This document shows, in pieces, positions 9,166-54,019 of a stretch of 64,000 nucleotides of DNA; within the stretch, counting starts at the first letter, position 1, and each line of letters starts with the position of its first letter. Source of the stretch: Vulcanimicrobiales bacterium (lineage in GTDB: Bacteria > Vulcanimicrobiota > Vulcanimicrobiia > Vulcanimicrobiales > Vulcanimicrobiaceae); NCBI GenBank assembly GCA_038215615.1, contig JBBQQR010000009.1:12682-76681 (forward strand), in the 5' to 3' direction. The position numbers and the translations under genes were made by a program. The notes beneath the pieces are model-generated. The model did not search any database. It saw only the letters and a program-made list of their open reading frames with translations, and was not told where the DNA came from.

Positions 9166-10314
9166 GTGGAGCAATCCGACCCCGCCCGGGAAATAGCCGA
9201 ACTCAGAGCCGCGCTGTCGGCGCGCGACGCGCGCCTGAAGAACATGGTCGCGCAAGAGAAAGAACTGCGCGCCGTGCGGAAGGCCGCGGAAGAGCGCGCC
9301 AAAGCTCTCGAGGAGCTGATGGCGGCGCTCGACGATCGCGATCGCCGGGCCAAGGCGCTTCAAGACGCCGCCGACCTCGGCGAGCAAAAGATCCAGGAAC
9401 TCACTGCAACGCTCCAATCGTTCGAGGTCTTTCGCAAAGCCGCCGAAGCCCGCGAGCTCGTGATTTCGGAGCTCAAGGCCGCGCTCGCCGAGCGCGATGG
9501 GCACGCCAAACACTTGCAGGAAGCCGTTACCGAACGCAACGCGCGCCTTACGGAATTAGCCAACCGCGCCGAGTCTCTCGAAGATTCGCGAGCTGCCGCC
9601 GAAGCACGCGAGCGTGTTATCGCTGAGCTAACCGCGGCGCTGGAAGAAACGAACCGGCGCGCGACCATGCTGCAAGAAGCTGCCGACGCCCGCTTGCAGA
9701 AACTGCACGAGGTCCAGGCGGCTGTTTCTTCCATGCATGACATTTATGCCGTCGCGCAAGAACGCGAACGCGTCATTACGGAACTTCAAGCCGCCGCCGC
9801 CGCCGGTCTTAAAGTGGCGCAGGAACGCGTGCGCGTCATTGCTGAGCTTCGCGCCGCGCTCGCGGAAACCGACGCGCGTGCCAAAACTTTGCAAGAGGCC
9901 GCCGACCTGCGCGGACAAAAGGTCGAAGAGCTTTCGGCCGCTTTGGAAAAGCAGAACGGTCGGGTGACCGAACTTGAAGCTGGCGCGAACAATTTCCAGG
10001 AGATGCATGCGACCGCTCAAGAACGCGAGAAGATCATCTTCGAGCTCAACGCGGCTCTGATCGAACGAGAGAAGAACGCGCAGAAAATCCTGGCGGCTGC
10101 AGGAGAACGGGAGACGCTGACCCTGGAACTAACCGCAGCGCTTGAAGAGCGTGACCGCCGGATCGCGCAGCTCGAGCGCGTCGCCGAGGAAAGATTGGTT
10201 GCGCTTCAAGAAACCGATAAGGGCTTGCAGGCGATTACGGCCGAGGCCGACCGCCGCGCGATTATGCTCTCCGAGGTAACGTCCTTGCTGCGCGAAAAAA
10301 CTGACGAAAGTTGA
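9166..10314 (+). CDS. Long coiled-coil repeat protein
   Basis: A/E/L/R-rich, almost no Pro or Gly, with about 52-aa internal repeats. Confidence 0.8.
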   Translation: MEQSDPAREIAELRAALSARDARLKNMVAQEKELRAVRKAAEERAKALEELMAALDDRDRRAKALQDAADLGEQKIQELTATLQSFEVFRKAAEARELVISELKAALAERDGHAKHLQEAVTERNARLTELANRAESLEDSRAAAEARERVIAELTAALEETNRRATMLQEAADARLQKLHEVQAAVSSMHDIYAVAQERERVITELQAAAAAGLKVAQERVRVIAELRAALAETDARAKTLQEAADLRGQKVEELSAALEKQNGRVTELEAGANNFQEMHATAQEREKIIFELNAALIEREKNAQKILAAAGERETLTLELTAALEERDRRIAQLERVAEERLVALQETDKGLQAITAEADRRAIMLSEVTSLLREKTDES

Positions 10315-20482: not shown

Positions 20483-23276
20483 TCCGGCGGAACGCGATTA
20501 TCGCGACACGCTGAACCTGCCGAAGACGGACTTTCCGATGAAAGCGGACTTGCCGAAGCGGGAGCCCGACCGCGTCGCGTGGTGGGAAGAGCGGCGCACC
20601 TACGAAAAACGCCTCGAGCGCAATGCGCGCAACGCGCCGTGGATATTGCACGACGGTCCACCTTATGCCAACGGCGAGCTGCACATGGGCCATTTCCTGA
20701 ACATGGTCCTGAAAGACATCTTCGTAAAAATAGCGCTAATCGATTCGCGCTGGGCGAAGTTCGTGCCGGGCTGGGACATGCATGGCTTACCGATCGAGCT
20801 CGATACGCTCAAGCATCTAAAAATAAAAGATTTTCACGACGTCGATCCGGTCGAGTTCCGGGAGAAGTGCAAAGAGCGCGCGCTGCATTGGCTGGACCGC
20901 CAACGCTCGGTGCGCATGCGCATGGGGAACTTCGGCGACTGGCAGCATCCGTATCGCACGATCGATCCCGAATTTGAAGCGACGATCGTGGAAACGCTCG
21001 GCGCGCTCGCATCCAAGAATCAGCTCTACAAAGGCCTGCGCTCGACGCTGTGGTGCATTCACGACGAAACGGCGCTCGCCGAAGCGGAGATCGAATACAA
21101 GCCGCGCGTCTCGCCGTCGGTCACGGTACGTTTTACCGCGAACGACGCCCAACGAATGGCACTCTTAAGTGCCATGGCGAGCCTGTCGAACCACCCCGAG
21201 CAGCGCGGCGTAGCCGCGCAAGCCGAGGGGCTTTCAAAGCTAAGCCTCCTCATCTGGACCACGACACCGTGGACGCTGCCCGCAAATGCCGCGATCGCGC
21301 TGCGTCCGGATGCCGAGTATGGTTTGTACGTGGTGGGCGATGAAGCGGTGATTGTTGCCGATGCGCTCGCCGAAAAAACGTTAGGCGACCGCGTCGTGGA
21401 CGCGCGGCGAATCGGGGGCGCGAAGGGAAGCGCGTTGGAAGGATTGGCGGTCCGCCATCCGTTCATGGATCGCGACACGCCGATCGTGCTCGCCGATTAC
21501 GTCGACATGGAAACCGGAACCGGCGCGGTACACACGGCGCCGGGGCACGGTGCGGACGACTTCGAAACGGGCGTGAAATACAATTTGCCGATTATCAATC
21601 CGGTCAATTCTGGCGGCGTTTTCACGAGCGAAGCGGGACCGTACGCCGGCATGCACATTTGGAAAGCCAATCCGAAGATCGTCGAGGATCTGCGCGCGAG
21701 CGGCGCGCTTTGGGATTATGCGGACTTCGAACACAGCTATCCGCACTGCTGGCGCTGCCACAACCCGGTGATCTTCCGCGCAACCGCGCAGTGGTTCATC
21801 GCGATGGATCAAAACCGGCTGCGCGCGCGCACGATCGAAAACATCCGCAGCGTGCAGTGGACGCCCGCGTGGGGCCAAGAACGCATCGCGCAAATGCTCG
21901 AGACGCATCCCGAGTGGTGCATCTCGCGTCAGCGCACGTGGGGAACGCCGATTCCGGCAATTGTTTGCAAGGGATGCGGCGAATCGATCCTCGATCCCGA
22001 AGTCGCCCGCATTACTGCCGAAATCTTTCGGGAACGCGGCGCCAATGCGTGGTGGACCGATCCGGTGCAGAGTTTTCTGCCGCCAAATTTTGCCTGCCCC
22101 AAGTGCCGAAGCACGACGTTCGAAAAAGAAAAGAACATCGTCGACATCTGGTTTGAATCGGGCGTGACGCACTTGGCCGTGCTCGGCAAAAACGGCTTGC
22201 CTTGGCCGTCCGATCTGGTGCTGGAAGGCGGCGATCAGTATCGCGGCTGGTTCCGCAGCTCGATCGTGACGGCGACCGCGGTTAAAGGCGTGGCGCCTTA
22301 TAAACACGTGGTGAAGAACGGCTGGGTCAACGACGAGAGCGGCCGGCAGATGAGCAAATCGCTCGGCACCGGCATCGACGCGCAGGAAGCGATGCAAAAA
22401 TGGGGCGCGGACGTGCTGCGTTTGTGGGCGGCTTCGGTGGAGTTCGTCGACGACGTGCGCTTCGGGCCGCACGTCATCGAACAAGTCAGCCGCGTTTACC
22501 GCAACATTCGCAATCGCCTTCGCTTCATGGTGAGCAATCTTGGCGACGTGAATCCGGACGATCTCATCGCGCGCGAGAACATGGAGCCATTCGACGCGCT
22601 GGCGTGCGAGCAAGTCGATCGCTGGACCGTGACCGTCCTGGAGTCGCTGCGCGACTACGACTTACACGGCGCTTATTTAGAGATCGTGCGTTTCGAAGGA
22701 GATGACCTCTCAAGCTTCTATTTCGATGCGCTGAAGGACCGGCTCTATTCGAGCGCAGCCGGGGCGTCGCGCCGGCGCAGCGCGCAGAGCGCGCTCTTCT
22801 ATATATTGCAGCGCGTGCTGGCAGTGCTGGCGCCACTCCTTTCCTTTACGGCGGAAGAAGCGTGGCAAGCGGTGCCGGCGGAGTTGCGCCGCAGCGACAG
22901 CGTCTTCGACCTGACTTTCGAATCGGGGCGCCCGGCCGGAGAAAAGGCTGCCGCCCTCTGGCAGCTGCTGAAAGAATTGCGCCAGCAAGTCGCCGCTAAC
23001 GAGTCGCCGCGCGACTTTGAGGCCGACGCGAGCAGCGTTGTCGTTCCGGCGGCGATGCTGAACGACGTGACGGCGTTGGGCGACGGACTCCGCGAAGCTC
23101 TTGTGGTTTCCACTGTCGAGCGCGTGTCGGGTGACGGCGAGGAACGTCGCGTCTATTTACTGCCCGCTAAGGGCTCCAAATGCAAACGCTGCTGGAAATA
23201 CCTACCGCTTGGAAGCGATGCACAACATCCGTCGCTGTGCGCGCCGTGCGCAGAAACGGTTCATGCACTCGCTTAG
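20475..23276 (+). CDS. ileS: Isoleucine--tRNA ligase (carries an in-frame repeat insertion)
   Basis: HDGPPYANG, HMGH, WTTTPWTLP, GTGAVHTAPGHG, WCISRQR, QMSKS, C-terminal zinc finger. Confidence 0.97.
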   Translation: MSDPAERDYRDTLNLPKTDFPMKADLPKREPDRVAWWEERRTYEKRLERNARNAPWILHDGPPYANGELHMGHFLNMVLKDIFVKIALIDSRWAKFVPGWDMHGLPIELDTLKHLKIKDFHDVDPVEFREKCKERALHWLDRQRSVRMRMGNFGDWQHPYRTIDPEFEATIVETLGALASKNQLYKGLRSTLWCIHDETALAEAEIEYKPRVSPSVTVRFTANDAQRMALLSAMASLSNHPEQRGVAAQAEGLSKLSLLIWTTTPWTLPANAAIALRPDAEYGLYVVGDEAVIVADALAEKTLGDRVVDARRIGGAKGSALEGLAVRHPFMDRDTPIVLADYVDMETGTGAVHTAPGHGADDFETGVKYNLPIINPVNSGGVFTSEAGPYAGMHIWKANPKIVEDLRASGALWDYADFEHSYPHCWRCHNPVIFRATAQWFIAMDQNRLRARTIENIRSVQWTPAWGQERIAQMLETHPEWCISRQRTWGTPIPAIVCKGCGESILDPEVARITAEIFRERGANAWWTDPVQSFLPPNFACPKCRSTTFEKEKNIVDIWFESGVTHLAVLGKNGLPWPSDLVLEGGDQYRGWFRSSIVTATAVKGVAPYKHVVKNGWVNDESGRQMSKSLGTGIDAQEAMQKWGADVLRLWAASVEFVDDVRFGPHVIEQVSRVYRNIRNRLRFMVSNLGDVNPDDLIARENMEPFDALACEQVDRWTVTVLESLRDYDLHGAYLEIVRFEGDDLSSFYFDALKDRLYSSAAGASRRRSAQSALFYILQRVLAVLAPLLSFTAEEAWQAVPAELRRSDSVFDLTFESGRPAGEKAAALWQLLKELRQQVAANESPRDFEADASSVVVPAAMLNDVTALGDGLREALVVSTVERVSGDGEERRVYLLPAKGSKCKRCWKYLPLGSDAQHPSLCAPCAETVHALA
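21170..21231 (+). repeat. Composite GA-mismatch hairpin repeat, in frame in ileS
   Basis: TGCCA-TGGC-GAG-CCTGT-CGA-ACCA-CCCC-GAG-CAGCGCGGCGTAGCCGCGCAAGC-CGA-GGGG; encodes AMASLSNHPEQRGVAAQAEG. Confidence 0.85.
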
Positions 23277-23290
23277 CGTAGGGCGTTCAT

Positions 23291-23354
23291 GTTGTCATCG
23301 TGAGCCTGTCGAACGACCCTGAGTAGCGCATCTGCGATGCGCGGATCGAAGGGC
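23291..23354 (+). repeat. Composite repeat, left of the GIY-YIG gene
   Basis: GTTGTCA-TCGT-GAG-CCTGT-CGA-ACGA-CCCT-GAG-TAGCGCATCTGCGATGCGCGGAT-CGA-AGGG-C. Confidence 0.9.
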
Positions 23355-23396
23355 TCGGGGCCTTGTTAAATGTTTCCTCGGTCGCAGTAGAGACGC

Positions 23397-23686
23397 ATGC
23401 GACGTTATTACGTGTACATGTTACAGTGCGCCGACGGCAGCTTCTATATCGGGATAACGAACAATTTGGATTTGCGCGTTTGGCAGCACAACGAAGGTAT
23501 CGATACGCACTGCTATACGTACTTGAGGCGCCCCGCGACACTCGTCTATTCCACCGATTTCGATGACCCGAAAAGGGCCATCTCGTGGGAAAAAAGCTCA
23601 AAGGCTGGTCACGTAAAAAGAAACAAGCTCTCATCGATGATAACTGGAGCCGAATAAGCGAGCTCGCGCGTAGAAAAATCGTGTGA
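23397..23686 (+). pseudogene. Stand-alone GIY-YIG nuclease (UPF0213/YhbQ-like), frameshifted at an A6 run (real or assembly error)
   Basis: YYVYMLQCADGSFYIGITNNL..RV.QHNEG. Adding one A at 23590-23595 restores WEKKLKGWSRKKKQALI...KIV* ending at 23686. Confidence 0.85.
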
Positions 23687-23690
23687 ACGC

Positions 23691-23754
23691 GCCCCCTCGA
23701 CCTGGGCGCTTTCGCGCCCTGCTCGGGGTCCTTCGACAGGCTCAGGATGACAAC
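23691..23754 (-). repeat. Composite repeat, right of the GIY-YIG gene (inverted)
   Basis: Reverse complement: GTTGTCA-TCCT-GAG-CCTGT-CGA-AGGA-CCCC-GAG-CAGGGCGCGAAAGCGCCCAGGT-CGA-GGGG-GC. Confidence 0.9.
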
Positions 23755-23766
23755 TGATAGGCGACG

Positions 23767-24204
23767 CTATTTCAGCGTCTGGACAAACTCCGCAACGTCG
23801 TGAAGATCGCGCGGCGTCATCTTCCAGCGCGGCATGACGGGATCGAGCACCTTGCCCTGGTTATCGACGCCGGTGGAAATGGCGCGCTCCAAACTTTGGA
23901 GCGTATAGGCCGGTTTGACGGACGCGAGCGCCTTTTGCCGCAAGTCGGCGCTCACGGCTCCTCCCGGCAGGTGCACGCCGCCCGAACCATCGGCGCGATG
24001 GCAGGCCGCGCACGACGTGCGCAGCGGCGGATGCAGTGCATTGATGCGAAAACCTTGGCTGTCCTTGCCGGTGAGGAAGATCATACGCCCATCGGACATA
24101 GCGCTCATCCTGGCTGCGGTCGCGGCGCGCTGCGCTTGCATCGAGTTGTTCGCGCACGCGCAAAGCGTGGTTAACGCAACGAGCGGAATGATATATTTTC
24201 GCAC
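23767..24204 (-). CDS. Monoheme c-type cytochrome lipoprotein
   Basis: Lipobox-like LCAC, CAACH, distal MP; SD GGAGG. Confidence 0.85.
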   Translation of the reverse strand: MRKYIIPLVALTTLCACANNSMQAQRAATAARMSAMSDGRMIFLTGKDSQGFRINALHPPLRTSCAACHRADGSGGVHLPGGAVSADLRQKALASVKPAYTLQSLERAISTGVDNQGKVLDPVMPRWKMTPRDLHDVAEFVQTLK

Positions 24205-24239: not shown

Positions 24240-27051
<2,812 letters not shown>

Positions 27052-38287: not shown

Positions 38288-39486
38288 GCTTCGAGCGCCT
38301 TTATGCCGGGGAGTTCTTTACCCTCGAGAAATTCGAGCGTCGCGCCGCCCCCGGTGCTTACGTGCGTGACGTTCTCCGCAAAGCCGAGCTCCTCGGCCGC
38401 AGCCGCGGCGTCGCCGCCGCCGACGACCGTGCGCGCGCCGCGCCCCGTTGCGCGCGCCATCGCTTCACCGACCGCTCGCGTACCTTCGCGGTAGGGCGGT
38501 TTCTCGTAGACGCCCATCGGTCCGTTGAAAACCACGGTGCGCGCCGCTTCGATGGTCTTCGCATACGCGGCGGCAGTCTTCGGTCCGATGTCGAGGATCA
38601 TGGAATTGCCGACGTCTGACAGTTCGACTGTGTGCGCGCCGGCATCATCGTCGAACTTTGCCGAAACGACCGCGTCGACCGGAAGCATCATCTCGACGCC
38701 GCGCTTGGCAGCGAGCTCGAGCATTGCTTGGGCCGGCTGCAAATCGTCGTCGCGCAGCGACGTGCCGACATCGATCCCTTGTGCCGCCAAAAATGTGTTT
38801 GCCATTCCTCCGCCGATGCAGAAGGCCGTCACACGATCCATCAGGTTATTGAAGACGCCGACCTTGTCTTTGACCTTCGCTCCACCGATCACGCACACGT
38901 AGGGCCGGTGAGGATCGGTCAGGAGGTTCGAAAGCTCGGCGATCTCGGCTTCCATGAGCAAACCGGCGAAGGCCGGCAAGCAATGCGCGACGCCTTCGGT
39001 TGAAGCGTGCGCGCGGTGCGCCGTTCCGAAAGCGTCGTTGACGTAGAGATCGGCCAGCGCCGCCAGCTGCTTTGCAAAATGCGGATCGTTCCGTTCTTCA
39101 CCCGGTTCGAAGCGGACATTTTCGAGCATCACGATCTGTCCATCGCGCAGTGATTCAGAAGCTTCTTGCGCGGCGGGACCCACCACGTCGGGCACCAGGG
39201 GCACATCACGGTGCAAGCGTTCGGCTAGGGCAGCGGCAACCGGTTTCAACGTGTATTTCGGGTTGCGTTTGCCCTCCGGCCGCCCCAAATGCGAAACGAT
39301 GATCGTGCGCGCGCCGCGATCGGAAAGATAGCGTAACGTCGGGAGCGCGGAATCGATCCGTTTGTAGTCGAGAATAGCCTGCCCTGAGCCTGCCGAAGGG
39401 TCTTTGAGCGGCACGTTGAGGTCTTCGCGGAGCAGCACGCGCTTGCCGCGCACGTCCGCGTCTTTCAGTGTGCGAAGCGTGGGCAC
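38284..39486 (-). CDS. pgk: Phosphoglycerate kinase (short in-frame repeat insertion)
   Basis: [39 protein letters not shown]. Confidence 0.97.
39380..39400 (+). repeat. Single-unit repeat inside pgk
   Basis: TG-CCCT-GAG-CCTGC-CGA-AGGG; antisense reading gives PSAGSGQ. Confidence 0.8.
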
Positions 39487-40516: not shown

Positions 40517-41401
40517 TCATCTCGAAGCGGATTCCCCGCGCAGGCGGCGCGCCAAGCGCGCCAGCGCGTTCAGACGGCTGCCGGCGGCCGGCTTGGATAT
40601 GGGTGGACTGCAGCGCTTGCCCAGCTCCGCCAAACTTTCGTCGGGATGGTTGAGGCGCAGCTCCGCAATCTCGCGCAACGCCGCGCTCAAGTGGCGCAGG
40701 CCGTACGCAGAGCTGACGTAATCGATGATCTCGCGCTGTGCGGCGGCTGCGCCGGCGACTCGCTCGAGATTTGCCGCTTCTGTGTTCACCAAGCGATGAA
40801 TGCGATTCTTGGTTTCCTTGAGCGCGTGGATGCCTTCAAGTTCCAATACGGTGTTGTGCGCGCCGGTGATGCCGAAGAACTGGACGATCGCCTCGAAGTC
40901 TTTATAGTAGAGCGTCGTGCGTTCGCTGCGGCGCATATTTTTCGGCGCACCGGCGACGGCGCGCAGGATCCATTCGAGTCGCTCGGCTCGCTCGCGATCC
41001 GGCGGCACGAACTCCAAGTGATAACCTTGCGATCCGGCGGATACCGAACCGCACGTCAAAAACGCGGCGCGAGCTTCCATCACACGATCGCATTTCCGAA
41101 CCGGTTTGCGTGCGCGTTCGGGCTCGACCGGTATCGCAATTCGCTGCGCCGTGCGGTTTGTTTTCGTTGTCATCCTGAGGTTGTCGAAGGACCCCGAGGG
41201 GCGAGCGAAGCGAGCCTCACGAGGGGAAAGCCTTAAAAGAAGCCGTGCAACCGCGTTGCGATGTGTCACAAAGTATGTACGCTTGCCGATCGATCGAGTA
41301 CCGTAGAGTACGAGGCCGGCGAGCAGTGCTTCGCGGCAGTGCGCCTGCTCCGGCAGATCGCGTGCCAGCGCGTCTTTGGTGTCGGCGGAAAGATTACGCA
41401 T
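40517..41401 (-). CDS. whiA: DNA-binding protein WhiA (in-frame repeat insertion)
   Basis: AFL.CGSVS..YHLEF, RLVN.EAANL, LR...P..SL.ELG; upstream of gap. Confidence 0.9.
41166..41226 (+). repeat. Composite repeat inside whiA (antisense to the gene)
   Basis: GTTGTCA-TCCT-GAG-GTTGT-CGA-AGGA-CCCC-GAG-GGGCGAGCGAAGCGAGCCTCA-CGA-GGGG; encodes [20 protein letters not shown]. Confidence 0.9.
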
Positions 41402-50095: not shown

Positions 50096-51419
50096 AAACA
50101 CCAGCCGCAATTGCAAATGGAACGAGCGCGATCGCAACGCTCAGAGACGTGGAAAGATCGGTCATGGCATCGGGAAGATAGCGCAAGACCGAAGCCAGCG
50201 TTAACGCCACGATCGCCCACGCGGCGGGAGTTTCCCACGCAAAAAGCGCCGCCGGTAAGATCCACAGCGCGTACCATGGGTACGGGTTGGGAATCGCAAT
50301 CCATAGCGCGAGCGCCAGCAGCGCGGCGCCGCTGTGGTTGCGCTTCCATAAGAGAATGCATCCGCCGATCGCTAACGCCACGGCAAGTGCGGCGGTAAGC
50401 GCGAGCGCCGCGGATCCGCCAAACGCCGCGTCTAGGACGTACTGCAGGGAGAATTGCGGGAAATAGGTTCCGCGTCCGGCGTTGTGCGAGAGCTGTGCCA
50501 GCGCGGGCCACGCGACGACTGCCGCCGCGGCGAGTCCCAATAGCGTGCCGGTTAAGACGCGCGAGCGCAAGCGACTCTCTGCGAACATGAACGGAGCGAC
50601 TGCGGCGGCTAGCAAGCCCGGCGCTTTTACGAGCGCCGATAACGAAACGACGACGGCACCCGTAAAGTGGCGCCCGCGTGTGATCAAGGCGGATCCCGCT
50701 AAAACGATTGCAACAAGGTAGACATCGTTGTGTCCTTCGGCCGCGGCCCAGATCGCGATCGGATTGAGCGCGATGCCCGCGGCGGCTGCGACGCGCGTGC
50801 GTTCGGGAAATGCCGCATGCGCCAGAGGAGCGCAGAGAACGAGCGCTCCGCAAGCACTGATGCGCAAGGCCCACAGCGGGGCGGCGGGGCCGAAGCCGGC
50901 AAAGATCGCGACGGTCGCTTGCGTGAACCATACGAATGCCGGGCCGTAAACGCAAGCCGGCGGAGGATTTCCCCACTGCCACAGCACCGCATCCATCAGC
51001 GGACCGCGCAAAGGAACGGCCGCATGCGCGTAGGGATCCAACCCGTGCAGCGCCATCAATCCGTACCCGGCGTAGGCGTAAACGTCGCTTGAAAATACGA
51101 CCGGAAAAAACAACGCAGCTGTACACGCGAGCGCGCTGCAAATGAGTGTCATGGCGAGCGTAGTCGAACCACCCCGAGCAGCGCCCGGTACGGGCGCAAG
51201 CCGAGGGGATGCCAGGACCGCCACATACCCGACGCTTGCGATCGCGATCGCAACAAACAGCGCAAGCCACATCAGCGACCCGAAATTCCCCCAGTACGTC
51301 ACCACGGCGAGCAGCTGCGCGCGGTCGACGGCAAACGTGGCGGGCACCCGCAGAAGAAGCAGCCGGCACGCGATGGCGCCGGCCACGAATCCTAATGGAA
51401 CGAAAAAGGCTAATCGCAT
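50010..51419 (-). CDS. GT-C membrane glycosyltransferase (MptA/MptB-like)
   Basis: FSSDVYAY...G..PY, YGP, LNP....GHND, PYPWY..W. Confidence 0.8.
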   Translation of the reverse strand: MRLAFFVPLGFVAGAIACRLLLLRVPATFAVDRAQLLAVVTYWGNFGSLMWLALFVAIAIASVGYVAVLASPRLAPVPGAARGGSTTLAMTLICSALACTAALFFPVVFSSDVYAYAGYGLMALHGLDPYAHAAVPLRGPLMDAVLWQWGNPPPACVYGPAFVWFTQATVAIFAGFGPAAPLWALRISACGALVLCAPLAHAAFPERTRVAAAAGIALNPIAIWAAAEGHNDVYLVAIVLAGSALITRGRHFTGAVVVSLSALVKAPGLLAAAVAPFMFAESRLRSRVLTGTLLGLAAAAVVAWPALAQLSHNAGRGTYFPQFSLQYVLDAAFGGSAALALTAALAVALAIGGCILLWKRNHSGAALLALALWIAIPNPYPWYALWILPAALFAWETPAAWAIVALTLASVLRYLPDAMTDLSTSLSVAIALVPFAIAAGVFIACSRRLRSGLPENHTPVPDPALYHFP

Positions 51420-52729: not shown

Positions 52730-54019
52730 ATGGATGAAACGGCGATGCGCCATTGCATCGAACGCAAGCGTGACGGCCACGCACTGTCGGCGACTGACTG
52801 GGACGCGATCATCGACGGTTTTATGGAAGGCCGCATAGACGAAGCACAGACCGCCGCGCTGTTCATGGCGTGCGTGTGGCGCGGTATGACTTTCGAGGAA
52901 GCCCACGCGCTGACCGATGCGATGGTGCGCAGCGGGGAAACGATTTCGTTCGACCGCGCCAGAGGCATCGTCGTCGATAAGCACTCGAGCGGAGGAGTCG
53001 CCGACATCGTCTCGTTGGTTGCGGTCCCGCTGGCGGCGGCGTGCGGCGCGCGCGTTGCAAAACTTTCGGGCCGGGCGCTTGGCCACACCGGTGGCACGAT
53101 CGACAAGCTCGAAGCAATTCCCGGTTTCAATGCTGCACTTTCGCTCGACACGTTCGTTCGCCAGGTCGAAACAATCGGTTGCGCGATTGCGGCGCAAACC
53201 CAAGCGCTGGTCCCGGCCGATAAACGGATCTACAACTTGCGCGATCGGACCGGTACGGTTCCCGCGATGGGGTTGATCGCTGCGTCGATCGTTTCGAAGA
53301 AAATCGCCTGTGGCGCGCATGCGATTGTGTTCGACGTAAAAACAGGTCCCGCGTCGTTTACGCCTCAACCGGATCAAGCTCGCGAGCTCGCGCGTTGGCT
53401 CGTTGAGATCTGCAAGGGATTCGGTCGCAAAGCCGTCGCCGTTGTCAGCGACATGCATCAGCCGCTGGGCCGCACCGTCGGCACGGGCATCGAAATGGTC
53501 GAAGCTCGCGACCTACTGCGGAATGGCGATAGTGTCATCCTGAGCTTGTCGAAGGACCCCGAGCGAAGCCGAGGGGTGAAGCTGATTTTAAAGATCGTCG
53601 CTGCGCTCCTGGACGCTTCGGAAATTTCCGGCGGCGAGAAACTCGCTGCGAAAGCCTTGGCCGGTGGAACGGGCTACGCGAAGCTCGTAGAAATGGTGGA
53701 AGCTCAAGGCGCGTCGCGCGGCGCCCTCGAGGGTATGGAGCTCGACTCGAAACCGCTTACCGCGAAGGCCTCGCAGTCGGGTTTTGTGCAATCGATCGAC
53801 GTGGTCCATTTAGGAAATGCCGGACGGCGGCTTTCCCACAGCGACTCCCTCGGCGGTTTGTTCGTAAACGTGGCAATCGGCGAACGCGTTGAAGCCGGTC
53901 AGCCGCTTGCGCGCGTCTATGGCAAAGACAAGGACCACGTTCGTAACTTGGAAGGCTCGTTCAAGATCGGCGCGGAGCCGGTTGAACCCCCCCCGCTGAT
54001 CTACGGCACCGTTACGTAG
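52730..54019 (+). CDS. pdp: Pyrimidine-nucleoside/thymidine phosphorylase (in-frame repeat insertion)
   Basis: KRDG, DKHSSGGV.D, SGRALGHTGGTIDKLE, PADK, SIVSKK, DVKTG. Confidence 0.93.
   Translation: MDETAMRHCIERKRDGHALSATDWDAIIDGFMEGRIDEAQTAALFMACVWRGMTFEEAHALTDAMVRSGETISFDRARGIVVDKHSSGGVADIVSLVAVPLAAACGARVAKLSGRALGHTGGTIDKLEAIPGFNAALSLDTFVRQVETIGCAIAAQTQALVPADKRIYNLRDRTGTVPAMGLIAASIVSKKIACGAHAIVFDVKTGPASFTPQPDQARELARWLVEICKGFGRKAVAVVSDMHQPLGRTVGTGIEMVEARDLLRNGDSVILSLSKDPERSRGVKLILKIVAALLDASEISGGEKLAAKALAGGTGYAKLVEMVEAQGASRGALEGMELDSKPLTAKASQSGFVQSIDVVHLGNAGRRLSHSDSLGGLFVNVAIGERVEAGQPLARVYGKDKDHVRNLEGSFKIGAEPVEPPPLIYGTVT
53533..53576 (+). repeat. Composite repeat in frame in pdp
   Basis: TGTCA-TCCT-GAG-CTTGT-CGA-AGGA-CCCC-GAG-CGAAGC-CGA-GGGG; encodes VILSLSKDPERSRG. 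Confidence 0.9.

What the first reader, a model, noticed from the sequence alone, without database searches (positions are those of the whole stretch)
41166..41226. Repeat translated in the antisense orientation inside WhiA
A near-consensus copy is read from its opposite strand as [20 protein letters not shown] without breaking the frame. The element therefore has stop-free frames in both orientations (sense VILSLSKDPE.., antisense ..SFD.LRMT or PS.GSGQ), a property that would help it colonise a genome with almost no intergenic space.
Basis: partly seen in the sequence, partly recalled or inferred. Interest (0 to 1): 0.7.

Follow-up and report, generated by a model that had tools for sequence, protein, structure and literature searches.

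The report
Hairpin repeat translated inside whiA
A copy of a small, widely scattered DNA hairpin repeat sits in frame inside the cell-division regulator gene whiA and is read as a floppy protein loop; this kind of insertion is already known from Rickettsia and similar repeats, so it is a new example rather than a new phenomenon.

Summary
Window 41162-41228 is one of 51 copies of a ~65-nt two-hairpin repeat in this 2.2-Mb genome. It lies antisense and in frame in an intact whiA (residues 59-79). whiA is under purifying selection (dN/dS 0.06-0.19). Seven congeners carry the insert at the same site. One congener and all 21 aligned genomes of other genera lack it. It replaced a beta-strand and is predicted to be disordered.

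At least nine other housekeeping genes carry in-frame copies. The repeat has a TGTCAT head and covarying stems with conserved tandem G.A mismatches. Its 24-nt core occurs letter for letter in at least nine phylum-level groups.

An 86-aa GIY-YIG nuclease gene 17 kb away is bracketed by two inverted copies, and 12 of 18 homologous loci in relatives show the same bracket. This matches the published Ssn/SRM and CGTC/TGTC-tagged REP systems, which include some Rickettsia RPEs. No RAYT gene was found.

Verdict: a new variant of a known kind. It fails the published SRM motif, and about 40% of copies lie in ORFs. One result is unusual: the repeat's bases are conserved inside whiA beyond synonymous expectation.

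The parts
41162..41228 (+). Repeat copy inside whiA, given in the element's own TGTCAT-headed orientation. whiA on the minus strand reads its reverse complement as residues ~59-80.
   Evidence: nhmmer hit C9:53843-53909, E=9.5e-13; translation.
41169..41193 (+). Module 1: GTCAT head plus a short stem with tandem G.A and a 5-nt loop. It encodes SFDNLRMT in whiA.
   Evidence: Zero of 6 comparable codons show synonymous variation among five congeners.
41194..41226 (+). Module 2: CCCC..GGGG stem with tandem G.A around an inner variable hairpin. It encodes [11 protein letters not shown] in whiA.
40517..41401 (-). whiA, 294 aa, intact.
23397..23657 (+). 86-aa single-domain GIY-YIG nuclease gene, the likely partner enzyme of the repeat (Ssn-like). 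GC is 0.49 against 0.61 for the window.
   Evidence: Pfam PF01541, 4e-14.
23287..23355 (+). Repeat copy left of the GIY-YIG gene, head pointing outwards.
   Evidence: nhmmer E=4.6e-15.
23692..23757 (-). Repeat copy right of the GIY-YIG gene, head pointing outwards.
   Evidence: nhmmer E=4.4e-17.
21164..21235 (+). Repeat copy in frame (sense) in a 939-aa class I aminoacyl-tRNA synthetase ORF. It reads AMASLSNHPEQRGVAAQAEG.
53529..53570 (+). Short repeat copy in frame (sense) in a thymidine/pyrimidine-nucleoside phosphorylase ORF. It reads SVILSLSKDPERSR.
26091..26156 (-). Repeat copy in the long ORF of tRNA-guanine transglycosylase, upstream of the Pfam domain. It is probably 5' of the true start.
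51144..51211 (+). Repeat copy; its gene context is not resolved.
39376..39402 (-). Headless 27-nt mini-form of the repeat in pgk. It reads DPSAGSGQA.

Best explanation
Window 41162-41228 is a copy of a dispersed ~65-nt hairpin repeat of the TGTC/CGTC-tagged REP type, that is, the type of the Ssn-related motifs.

Shown:
- The copy entered whiA in an ancestor of most of this genus.
- It took the place of about 16 codons, namely strand beta-3 and the beta3-beta4 turn of the N-terminal degenerate LAGLIDADG domain. The net gain is about 7 residues.
- It has stayed in frame since, through several indels and even a change of reading frame.
- The gene itself remains under purifying selection.

Inferred:
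- The insert is translated as a disordered surface loop that WhiA tolerates.
- The repeat family is spread or maintained by the small GIY-YIG nuclease encoded at 23397-23657 between two inverted repeat copies. By analogy with Neisseria SsnA, this enzyme would bind the hairpin on single-stranded DNA, on one strand only, and cut just upstream of the TGTCAT head.
- Copies land anywhere. Only those that keep a frame open and sit in tolerant loops survive in essential genes.

The repeat's own bases are kept constant inside whiA. The cause is either constraint at the DNA level or homogenisation with other copies.
For: Repeat identity.

Insertion polarity:
- The repeat-derived peptide is present in G001, G002, G003, G005, G006, G008 and, as a fragment at a contig end, G007.
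- It is absent in G009 and in 21 of 21 genomes of other genera.
- The DNA is recognisably the same element at the same site.

Functional gene: dN/dS is 0.06-0.19 with dS 0.5-1.8.

Structure:
- The AlphaFold2 model has mean pLDDT 87, but residues 67-84 are below 50 and only one strand (88-91) follows helix 49-66.
- The insert-free ortholog L009 has pLDDT 93 and strands 63-65 and 75-79 at that place.

Peptide not conserved, DNA conserved:
- G003 reads the element as VLRQAQDDKKK and G005 as ALRPARSGALLRMT.
- Synonymous variation occurs in 3 of 10 element columns against 147 of 189 elsewhere (Fisher p=0.0025), and in 0 of 6 columns in module 1.

Hairpin constraint in the family:
- Stem 1 swaps C-G and G-C 27:6 and 21:13.
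- Stem 2 has C-G 22 against T-A 9.
- The inner stem has 187 of 202 cells paired, against 42-48 when slid by one column.
- The tandem G.A is kept in 35 of 36 copies.

General phenomenon: there are in-frame copies with Pfam domains on both sides in Lhr, PurL, a biotin carboxylase/BCCP fusion, a class I aaRS, RF3, LigA, thymidine phosphorylase, a xanthine-dehydrogenase-type subunit and a CoxM/S-type fusion.

Partner enzyme:
- The GIY-YIG gene is bracketed head-out by the repeat in G000 and in 12 of 18 strong-homolog loci. Three more loci have a copy on one side. None of 12 weak-homolog loci has any.
- The same bracket is seen in an Acidobacteriota MAG and a Patescibacteria MAG.
- A strong homolog occurs in 16 of 18 repeat-bearing genomes against 2 of 23 others.

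Published precedent: Ssn/NTS (PMC11893778, sections read) and CGTC/TGTC-tagged REPs with intragenic units (PMC3733652).
Against: - Translation of the insert is inferred from frame maintenance only.
- The low pLDDT could partly reflect the few insert-bearing rows in the alignment.
- The whiA copy does not fold better than shuffles as ssDNA. 151 of 200 shuffles on the + strand and 185 of 200 on the - strand fold at least as well.
- None of the 51 copies fits the published degenerate SRM search pattern, and the genome has fewer pattern matches (13) than shuffles (25-26).
- The nearest solved structures of the nuclease are UPF0213 proteins (E=3e-10). I could not test whether it falls in the Ssn clade (cd10448).
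- Two repeat-bearing genomes (G020, 72% complete, and G021) gave no GIY-YIG match with this query.
- No clean empty-site versus filled-site pair was found, so the insertion mechanism and any target duplication are unknown.
- Related genomes are not independent, so the association counts overstate the support.
Confidence: 0.8

Rival explanations
1. The copy in whiA is not neutral baggage. Its DNA hairpin is kept by selection as a working site inside the gene, for example a binding or cutting site for the GIY-YIG nuclease that affects recombination, repair or uptake of this region.
For: - Synonymous sites in the element are far less variable than in the rest of whiA: 3 of 10 columns against 147 of 189, and 0 of 6 in module 1.
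- Both Ala codons of the inner stem changed together, GCT..GCT to GCG..GCG, between congeners. This turns a tandem G.A into two G-C pairs.
- The element persisted over dS 0.5-1.8.
- In Neisseria, NTS sites modulate transformation (PMC11893778).
Against: - G001 lost the inner hairpin, G005 carries a different module-1 form and G006 a partial duplication, so the site is not rigidly kept.
- G009 lacks the element altogether.
- The same conservation would follow from gene conversion.
- Only 10 codon columns could be tested.
Confidence: 0.2
2. The bases of the whiA copy stay consensus-like because they are repeatedly overwritten by gene conversion or template switching from the other ~50 copies (concerted evolution), not because of selection.
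For: - Module 1 is nearly identical in all paralogs.
- Orthologous sites show turnover. G005 has a hairpin-in-loop variant and G006 has duplicated heads in whiA. LigA shows stuttered heads and variant swaps.
- An inversion between inverted copies is seen next to the GIY-YIG gene.
Against: The inner hairpin differs between paralogs within a genome. Yet it is almost the same in the whiA copies of six congeners. This fits vertical descent of this particular copy rather than overwriting by random paralogs.
Confidence: 0.3
3. The family is an ordinary REP/REPIN system moved by a RAYT (IS200/IS605-type Y1 transposase).
For: - The repeats are short tagged hairpins.
- Head-to-head doublets about 67 nt apart occur in G010.
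- A single-copy gene is flanked by inverted repeats.
Against: PF01797 was found in 0 of 18 repeat-bearing genomes, including G000 at 100% completeness. It was found in 6 of 23 genomes without the repeat. The control genomes gave hits. The tag is TGTC, not GTAG.
Confidence: 0.03
4. The repeat acts as RNA, as a structured element such as a terminator or stabiliser, and the whiA copy is an accidental or regulatory RNA structure.
For: - Stems covary and tandem G.A is conserved.
- Orientation is biased. 15 of the 20 copies my caller places inside ORFs are sense to the gene (two-sided binomial about 0.04 by my arithmetic).
- Di Nocera et al. argue that many REPs act as RNA.
Against: - No Rfam family matches at gathering score across the window. 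The only weak hits are chance-level, E about 1.
- Five genic copies, including whiA, are antisense.
- SsnA does not bind RNA.
- No RNA data were available.
Confidence: 0.1
5. The whiA match is a chance resemblance in a variable loop, or whiA is a decaying pseudogene.
For: The site is a variable part of WhiA, and the N-terminal domain gets no Pfam WhiA_N match.
Against: - E=9.5e-13 over the full model.
- The same element sits at the same site in seven congeners.
- dN/dS is 0.06-0.19.
- The model is confident outside the insert.
Confidence: 0.02

Closest known systems
Rickettsia palindromic elements (RPEs; Ogata et al. 2000, as summarised in PMC10969869, passages read)
   Same: Small palindromic repeats inserted in frame in many unrelated housekeeping genes. 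They are translated and apparently tolerated. According to Di Nocera et al., RPE-4 and RPE-6 are themselves CGTC-tagged REPs, so the kinship may be real and not only functional.
   Different: - RPEs were described as ~150 bp with a conserved peptide. Here the unit is 27-70 nt and the peptide is not conserved, since the reading frame differs between congeners.
- The host is a free-living-type genome probably of Eremiobacterota/Vulcanimicrobiota, not an obligate intracellular alphaproteobacterium.
- I did not compare sequences with RPEs.
CGTC/TGTC-tagged REP superfamily (Di Nocera, De Gregorio & Rocco 2013, PMC3733652; abstract, section 6 and passages read)
   Same: - An unpaired 5' tag (here TGTC) followed by AT.
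- A stem of about 8-9 positions, a loop of about 5 and a short C-rich tail.
- Head-to-head dimers.
- Units inside genes, often DNA replication and repair genes. Here these are LigA, LigD and Lhr.
- No RAYT.
   Different: - The stem here holds a conserved tandem G.A mismatch, and its outermost A pairs with C in this genome (T in relative G014).
- A second GA-containing hairpin module is fused to it in this lineage.
- I could not see the paper's Figure 2 consensus sequences, so assignment to one of its four families is untested.
Ssn nucleases with NTS/SRM repeats (Chenal et al. 2025, PMC11893778; sections 6, 7, 8, 10, 12, 17, 18 read)
   Same: - A single-domain GIY-YIG protein of about 90 aa whose gene is bracketed by inverted hairpin repeats with a GTCAT head, with the same repeats scattered through the genome.
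- Tyr, Tyr and Glu stand at positions 5/7, 17 and 65 here. The paper mutated Y6, Y17 and E64.
   Different: - None of 51 copies fits the paper's degenerate SRM pattern.
- About 40% of copies lie in ORFs (20 of 51 by my caller), against 2% for NTS in N. meningitidis.
- The nearest solved structures are UPF0213 proteins.
- Clade membership (cd10448, blastp to Nm SsnA) was not tested.
REP/REPIN with RAYT
   Same: The layout of one enzyme gene flanked by inverted copies of a hairpin repeat that also spreads without it.
   Different: A different enzyme class. No Y1 transposase was found in any of the 18 repeat-bearing genomes.

Membership tests
RPE-like in-frame intragenic repeat (behaviour, not sequence family) | A copy of a dispersed repeat lies inside a conserved gene with the frame kept, and orthologs without it exist. 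| tested here: met
   The same holds in the class I aaRS gene and LigA.
RPE-like in-frame intragenic repeat (behaviour, not sequence family) | Sequence similarity to RPE-1 to RPE-10. | not tested
CGTC/TGTC-tagged REP superfamily | An unpaired CGTC or TGTC tag at one end of the palindrome. | tested here: met
   The majority consensus of 37 near-full copies starts ..TTGTCAT...
CGTC/TGTC-tagged REP superfamily | Stem of 8-9 bp starting with complementary AT, loop of 4-5 nt, 3-nt tail near CCA. | tested here: inconclusive
   - The geometry fits only if the tandem G.A is counted as stem positions: ATCCTGAGC / loop / GTCGAAGGAC.
- The tail is CCC.
- The 3' partner of the leading A is C here and T in G014.
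CGTC/TGTC-tagged REP superfamily | No associated tyrosine transposase. | tested here: met
   PF01797 was found in 0 of 18 repeat-bearing genomes.
Ssn-related motif (SRM) as defined by Chenal et al. | A match to the degenerate SRM search pattern given in the paper's Methods. | tested here: not met
   None of 51 copies matches. The genome has 13 matches against 25-26 in three shuffles.
Ssn-related motif (SRM) as defined by Chenal et al. | Repeats flank a small GIY-YIG gene on both sides. | tested here: met
   This holds in G000 and in 12 of 18 homologous loci. Three more have a copy on one side. None of 12 control loci has any. Two other phyla show the same bracket.
Ssn nuclease family | Single-domain GIY-YIG protein under 150 aa. 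| tested here: met
   86 aa; PF01541 covers residues 4-70, E=4e-14.
Ssn nuclease family | Top CDD hit cd10448, and blastp E<1e-10 to N. meningitidis SsnA over 75% of the query. | not testable with these tools
   No CDD library and no SsnA sequence were on hand. NCBIfam gave no family. The nearest solved structures are UPF0213 proteins.
Ssn nuclease family | Strand-specific cutting of single-stranded DNA next to the hairpin, with none on dsDNA or RNA. | not testable with these tools
   This needs a bench assay.
REP/REPIN-RAYT | A cognate Y1 (HUH) transposase gene flanked by the repeats. | tested here: not met
MITE | Terminal inverted repeats and target-site duplication. | tested here: inconclusive
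   Single units have no terminal inverted repeats. The LigA site in G002 and G001 lacks the element, but the flanks differ too much to read a duplication.
WhiA | LAGLIDADG-like domain plus C-terminal HTH_WhiA domain. | tested here: met
   The profile matches solved WhiA chains 8dy7_I, 8dy9_I and 3hyi_A.

The most novel reading that the evidence does not exclude
The TGTCAT-headed hairpin with a tandem G.A mismatch is a distinct, so far undescribed recognition class of the Ssn-type nuclease/repeat partnership. Its 24-nt core is identical in at least nine phylum-level groups. It is kept under selection at the DNA level even when it lies inside essential genes such as whiA. If so, these in-frame copies would be working single-stranded-DNA nuclease sites that the cell maintains, not tolerated junk.
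Probability: 0.18. Interest if true: 0.7.

Novelty: new variant of a known kind. Interest (0 to 1): 0.4.

Why it matters
The find extends in-frame hairpin-repeat insertion, classically a Rickettsia oddity, to an uncultured soil and peat phylum and to a regulator, WhiA, whose N-terminal domain loses a beta-strand to the insert.

It links those insertions in the same window to a bracketed GIY-YIG nuclease gene. It also shows that the published SRM search pattern misses this repeat class, so surveys of Ssn systems undercount them.

For annotation, the four open frames of the repeat produce spurious ORFs and odd loops in real proteins, and they break assemblies. In G007, whiA is split over two contigs at the repeat.

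The reduced synonymous variation inside the element gives a small, testable hint that such copies are not simply neutral.

Tried and rejected
- Rfam. The gathering search of the whole window gave only a tRNA. A permissive search around two copies gave only chance-level Rubella_3 hits.
- RAYT/Y1 transposase. None in G000 and none in any repeat-bearing relative.
- Published SRM pattern. None of 51 copies fits.
- Thermodynamic folding. The whiA copy and one other copy fold no better than shuffles as ssDNA. Only the copy at 23291-23357 did (z=-1.9). The structure therefore rests on covariation.
- Empty site and target duplication. In LigA, G002 and G001 lack the element, but the site holds other short sequence and no duplication can be read. 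RF3 and the carboxylase were fetched but not analysed further.
- Expression. No RNA holder is listed for whiA.
- Literature by peptide signature. Six signature strings gave 0 papers. 'GIY-YIG' with 'repetitive extragenic palindromic' gave 0 papers. 'YhbQ' with 'GIY-YIG' gave 0 papers. 'GIY-YIG' with 'miniature inverted-repeat' gave 10 papers, all eukaryotic or viral by title.
- Earlier notes by place and by sequence gave nothing.
- tmRNA. I suspected a missing or disrupted tmRNA because ARAGORN found none. Rfam finds it at C7:80861-81214 with 116 bits, so I dropped the idea.
- Cross-phylum check of the nuclease next to the 24-mer with 200-nt flanks. Only 1 of 123 loci (L088) showed a GIY-YIG fragment. 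This is expected if most copies are solo, but it gives no support by itself. A Pedobacter genome gave no match and a Mucilaginibacter genome only a weak one with this query.
Full report
**1. The observation**

The ORF at window 40517..41401 (minus strand) is 294 aa. It reads ...[41 protein letters not shown]... without a stop. It carries the two diagnostic WhiA domains: HTH_WhiA at 201-284 and LAGLIDADG_WhiA at 111-198. A profile of it and its orthologs matches the solved WhiA chains 8dy7_I, 8dy9_I and 3hyi_A. Residues 59-79 are encoded by 41166-41226.

The 25-nt core of this stretch recurs in the window: 3 matches at up to 3 mismatches, none in 100 shuffles. An iterated nhmmer profile built from seven window copies finds 51 hits in the 2.21-Mb, 54-contig genome. 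The whiA copy scores E=9.5e-13 over almost the whole model. The element's TGTCAT-headed strand is the + strand, so whiA reads it backwards.

**2. Anatomy of the repeat**

Thirty-seven near-full copies align to a consensus of two modules.

- Module 1 is a TGTCAT head followed by a short stem, GAGC, a loop of about 5 nt, GTCGA and the other stem arm.
- Module 2 has the same design (CCCC GAGC ... GTCGA GGGG), wrapped around an inner hairpin whose sequence differs from copy to copy.

Covariation supports the stems:

- The two central pairs of stem 1 occur as C-G/G-C in 27:6 and 21:13 copies.
- The innermost pair of stem 2 occurs as C-G in 22 and T-A in 9.
- The inner stem has 187 of 202 cells in standard pairs, against 42-48 when the partner is slid by one column.
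- In both modules the 5'-GA/5'-GA pair that would form tandem G.A mismatches is almost invariant (35 of 36 copies in module 1).

Nearest-neighbour folding gives no extra support. The whiA copy folds no better than shuffles as ssDNA on either strand. Rfam has no matching family.

**3. Is the whiA segment an insertion, and is whiA alive?**

I fetched whiA from 40 relatives and aligned 30 loci.

- The repeat-derived peptide is present in congeners G002, G006, G005, G008, G001 and G003. G007 carries a fragment, because its whiA is split over two contigs exactly at the repeat.
- It is absent in congener G009, which is shorter at this place.
- It is absent in all 21 aligned genomes of other genera, families and the class. 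These have a conserved ...H-IEKIPG-TRLRRVP-SYRIALP... instead. One of the 21 (G017) is flagged unpublished; without it the count is 20 of 20.
- Four of those genera (G010, G014, G015, G016) carry the repeat family elsewhere in their genomes, so the whiA copy is a lineage-specific event.

At the DNA level the seven congeners hold the same element at the same site, with in-frame variations:

- G001 lacks the inner hairpin.
- G006 has a partial head duplication (FDRLRMTPDKLRMTS).
- G005 has a hairpin inside the loop of module 1.
- G003 has a 1-nt shift that changes the reading to VLRQAQDDKKK, compensated downstream.

Outside the insert, dN/dS between G000 and seven relatives is 0.06-0.19 at dS 0.5-1.8. 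whiA is therefore functional and the insertion is old.

**4. What it does to the protein**

- The AlphaFold2 model on a 27-sequence alignment is confident (mean pLDDT 87) except for residues 67-84, which are below 50. After helix 49-66 only one strand (88-91, RIAI) precedes the second domain.
- The insert-free ortholog L009, on the same alignment reordered, has pLDDT 93. It has two strands at that place, 63-65 (EKI) and 75-79 (SYRIA).
- The insert therefore replaced beta-3 and the beta3-beta4 turn of the N-terminal degenerate LAGLIDADG domain, with a net gain of about 7 residues. It is predicted to be a disordered loop.
- This is a prediction. The few insert-bearing rows in the alignment may lower confidence there.

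**5. The same thing elsewhere in the genome**

For every copy I listed the stop-free frames that span it. I then scanned 45 spanning ORFs of at least 150 aa against Pfam. Twenty-two of these had no Pfam match and are mostly shadow frames.

- Copies with domain matches on both sides lie in an Lhr helicase, PurL, a biotin carboxylase/BCCP fusion, a 939-aa class I aminoacyl-tRNA synthetase, RF3, NAD-dependent DNA ligase, thymidine phosphorylase, a xanthine-dehydrogenase-type large subunit and a CoxM/S-type fusion.
- Further copies lie in LigD (two copies), a NuoG-like protein and ComEA.
- Copies form the C-terminal tails of a lipoate ligase, TrpE and an ECF sigma factor.
- A crude self-trained ORF caller (2001 ORFs, 0.90 of the genome covered) puts 20 of 51 copies inside ORFs, 15 sense and 5 antisense to the gene. 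It missed the thymidine phosphorylase copy.
- WhiA is the only gene that reads the SFD.LRMT frame.

In the synthetase the insertion is orthologous across the genus, and again G003 reads another frame, CHGEPVEPP. In LigA the site is polymorphic. G002 and G001 lack the element, while G006, G005 and G008 have stuttered multi-head versions, all in frame.

**6.

In 32 of the 37 near-full copies the frames could be anchored on the head. The results were:

| Frame | Copies open of 32 |
|---|---|
| Sense, VILSLSKDPE | 24 |
| Sense, HPEPVEGPR | 21 |
| Antisense, LRQAQDD | 27 |
| Antisense, SFDRLRM | 31 |
| Sense, third frame (closed by TGA) | 1 |
| Antisense, third frame (closed by TGA) | 2 |

Overall 0.55 of frames are open, against 0.62 in composition-matched shuffles. 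A 65-nt sequence at 61% GC is expected to be open in most frames, and genic and non-genic copies do not differ. I see no evidence of adaptation; selection against disruptive copies is enough.

The PS.GSGQ signature does exist. It comes from a headless 27-nt mini-form, read as DPS[AT]GSGQA. This sits in pgk and in three other predicted genes. In pgk it is present in G000, G001 and G003 but not in five other congeners.

**7. What moves or keeps the repeat**

No Y1 transposase (PF01797) is present in G000 or in any of the 18 repeat-bearing genomes among 41 searched. Six of the 23 genomes without the repeat have one.

In the same window, 17 kb from whiA, two inverted copies (23287-23355 on + and 23692-23757 on -) bracket an AT-richer stretch. 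It holds an 86-aa ORF that is a single GIY-YIG domain (PF01541, 4e-14; GC 0.49 against 0.61).

- Among relatives, strong homologs (E<=5e-16) occur in 16 of 18 repeat-bearing genomes and 2 of 23 others.
- In 12 of 18 strong-homolog loci the gene is bracketed in the same head-out way. Three more have a copy on one side, and none of 12 weak-homolog loci has any.
- These counts include the unpublished G017 and G036 among the 23 repeat-free genomes. Kin are not independent.
- The same bracket is seen around a 56%-identical homolog in a MAG labelled Ca. Acidoferrum. It is also seen around a 32%-identical one in a Patescibacteria MAG.
- GIY-YIG genes in a Dehalococcoidia MAG and in other Patescibacteria loci are flanked by different GTCAT-headed hairpins.
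- The unit is syntenic within the genus, next to the synthetase gene, but is not next to that synthetase gene in any other genus locus I held.

**8. Comparison with what is known**

After I had found the bracketed gene, earlier notes of this scan pointed me to two papers, which I then read in part.

Chenal et al. 2025 (PMC11893778; sections 6, 7, 8, 10, 12, 17, 18):

- They describe Ssn, single-domain GIY-YIG nucleases of about 94 aa.
- The genes are flanked by hairpin repeats (NTS, or SRM more generally) with a CGTCAT head.
- The enzymes bind the hairpin only as single-stranded DNA, on one strand, and cut a few bases upstream. They act on neither dsDNA nor RNA.
- NTS is rarely intragenic: 2% in N. 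meningitidis.

Di Nocera et al. 2013 (PMC3733652; abstract, section 6 and passages):

- They define CGTC/TGTC-tagged REPs with stems of 8-9, loops of 4-5 and a short tail.
- These have no transposase.
- They note units inside genes, many of them replication and repair genes.
- They equate RPE-4 and RPE-6 of Rickettsia with CGTC REPs.

The present family fits this kind in tag, size, layout and behaviour. It differs in four ways:

- It has a conserved tandem G.A inside the stem.
- It is fused to a second module. In my 123 cross-phylum loci, that module appears only next to copies labelled Eremiobacterota/Vulcanimicrobiota.
- None of 51 copies fits the published SRM search pattern.
- About 40% of copies sit in ORFs.

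Whether the nuclease belongs to the Ssn clade proper could not be tested. The nearest solved structures are UPF0213 proteins.

**9. Distribution**

Among the 80 listed rows:

| Record label | Rows |
|---|---|
| Eremiobacterota/Vulcanimicrobiota, including Baltobacteraceae, Ca. Cybelea and Ca. Aquilonibacter | 34 |
| Bacteroidota genera or bins (Pedobacter, Mucilaginibacter, Flavobacterium and others) | 30 |
| Ca. Acidoferrum | 3 |
| Verrucomicrobia | 2 |
| Patescibacteria/Peribacteria | 3 |
| Proteobacteria | 4 |
| Neomarinimicrobiota | 1 |
| Dehalococcoidia | 1 |
| Syntrophaceae | 1 |
| Unclassified | 1 |

The assignment of genera to phyla is from my own knowledge.

Among 41 relatives the core is present in 9 of 9 congeners, 8 of 15 other genera of the family, and none of 16 genomes of the two sister families. 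This patchy, cross-phylum spread of an identical 24-mer argues for horizontal movement with a strongly constrained sequence. The window itself probably comes from Eremiobacterota (inference from the labels of its look-alikes).

**10. An unexpected detail**

I took alignment columns where five congeners have the same residue. Synonymous variation is seen in 147 of 189 columns outside the element, but in only 3 of 10 inside it, and in 0 of 6 in module 1 (Fisher p=0.0025).

The two Ala codons that form the inner stem changed together between congeners. This turns a tandem G.A into two G-C pairs. The peptide is not conserved, but the DNA is.

The cause is either a constraint at the nucleic-acid level or homogenisation with paralogs. 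The inner hairpin differs between paralogs but is almost the same among the orthologous whiA copies. This favours descent with constraint over random overwriting, but the sample is small.

**11. Verdict**

The finding is real and well explained as an old, tolerated, in-frame insertion of an Ssn/CGTC-REP-type hairpin repeat. It is a new variant of a known kind. The adaptive reading of the open frames is not supported. The DNA-level conservation inside whiA, and the failure of the published motif to catch this class, are the parts worth following.

Noticed in passing
window 23287-23757: An 86-aa GIY-YIG nuclease gene lies between two inverted repeat copies. The whole unit is about 470 bp and AT-richer than the genome. 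The same bracket is present in 12 of 18 homologous loci of relatives and in two other phyla.
   Followed up: yes
window 22820-24204 compared with L202, L203, L204: In G000 the order is synthetase gene, GIY-YIG unit, then a 145-aa gene on the minus strand. In G006, G007 and G008 the order is synthetase gene, the 145-aa gene on the same strand, then the GIY-YIG unit. This looks like an inversion between inverted repeat copies.
   Followed up: partly
window 39376-39402 (pgk); G000 C1:133899-136211, C16:35937-38921, C5:58657-60144: A headless 27-nt mini-form of the repeat is read as DPS[AT]GSGQA (DPSTGSGK in one gene) inside four genes. In pgk it is present in G000, G001 and G003 but not in five other congeners. 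This implies repeated gain or precise loss.
   Followed up: partly
G000 C7:34120-34182 with ORF C7:34124-35098 (minus): The predicted gene ends ...GPSTGSG*. Its stop codon is the TGA inside the repeat's GGATGAC.
   Followed up: no
G000 C12:15141-15204: A repeat copy sits at the trpE/trpG junction. It supplies the last ~25 codons of TrpE and overlaps the long ORF of the glutamine amidotransferase gene.
   Followed up: no
L072 201-224 and L098 (MAGs labelled Vulcanimicrobiota / Eremiobacterota): The 24-mer lies directly 5' of a T-arm-plus-acceptor-like sequence ending in CCA. cmscan gives a weak tRNA-like match (23.7 bits, below gathering) with the repeat inside the 'anticodon' region. ARAGORN calls nothing.
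   Followed up: partly
G007 contigs C104 and C33: In this congener whiA is split over two contigs exactly at the repeat, so the repeat breaks short-read assemblies.
   Followed up: no
L275 (G012), same site of the class I synthetase gene: A genus without matches to the core pattern has a different hairpin-repeat-like peptide (..CHPERSEAKSRD..) at the same insertion site. The site may be a hot spot, or the insert may be older and replaced.
   Followed up: no
L158, L105, L140; G014 C1:1059401-1059948 and other arrays: In other genomes module 1 forms long tandem arrays with a period of about 34-70 nt. There are also patterns in which the head plus a few flanking bases is duplicated just upstream of a full copy.
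   Followed up: no
G000 C7:80861-81214: ARAGORN finds no tmRNA in the genome, but the Rfam tmRNA model matches here with 116 bits.
   Followed up: partly
window 9283-10289: Eight diverged copies of a 47-nt unit lie at spacings of 63-231 nt (repeat finder family D1). This is probably a repetitive coding region.
   Followed up: no
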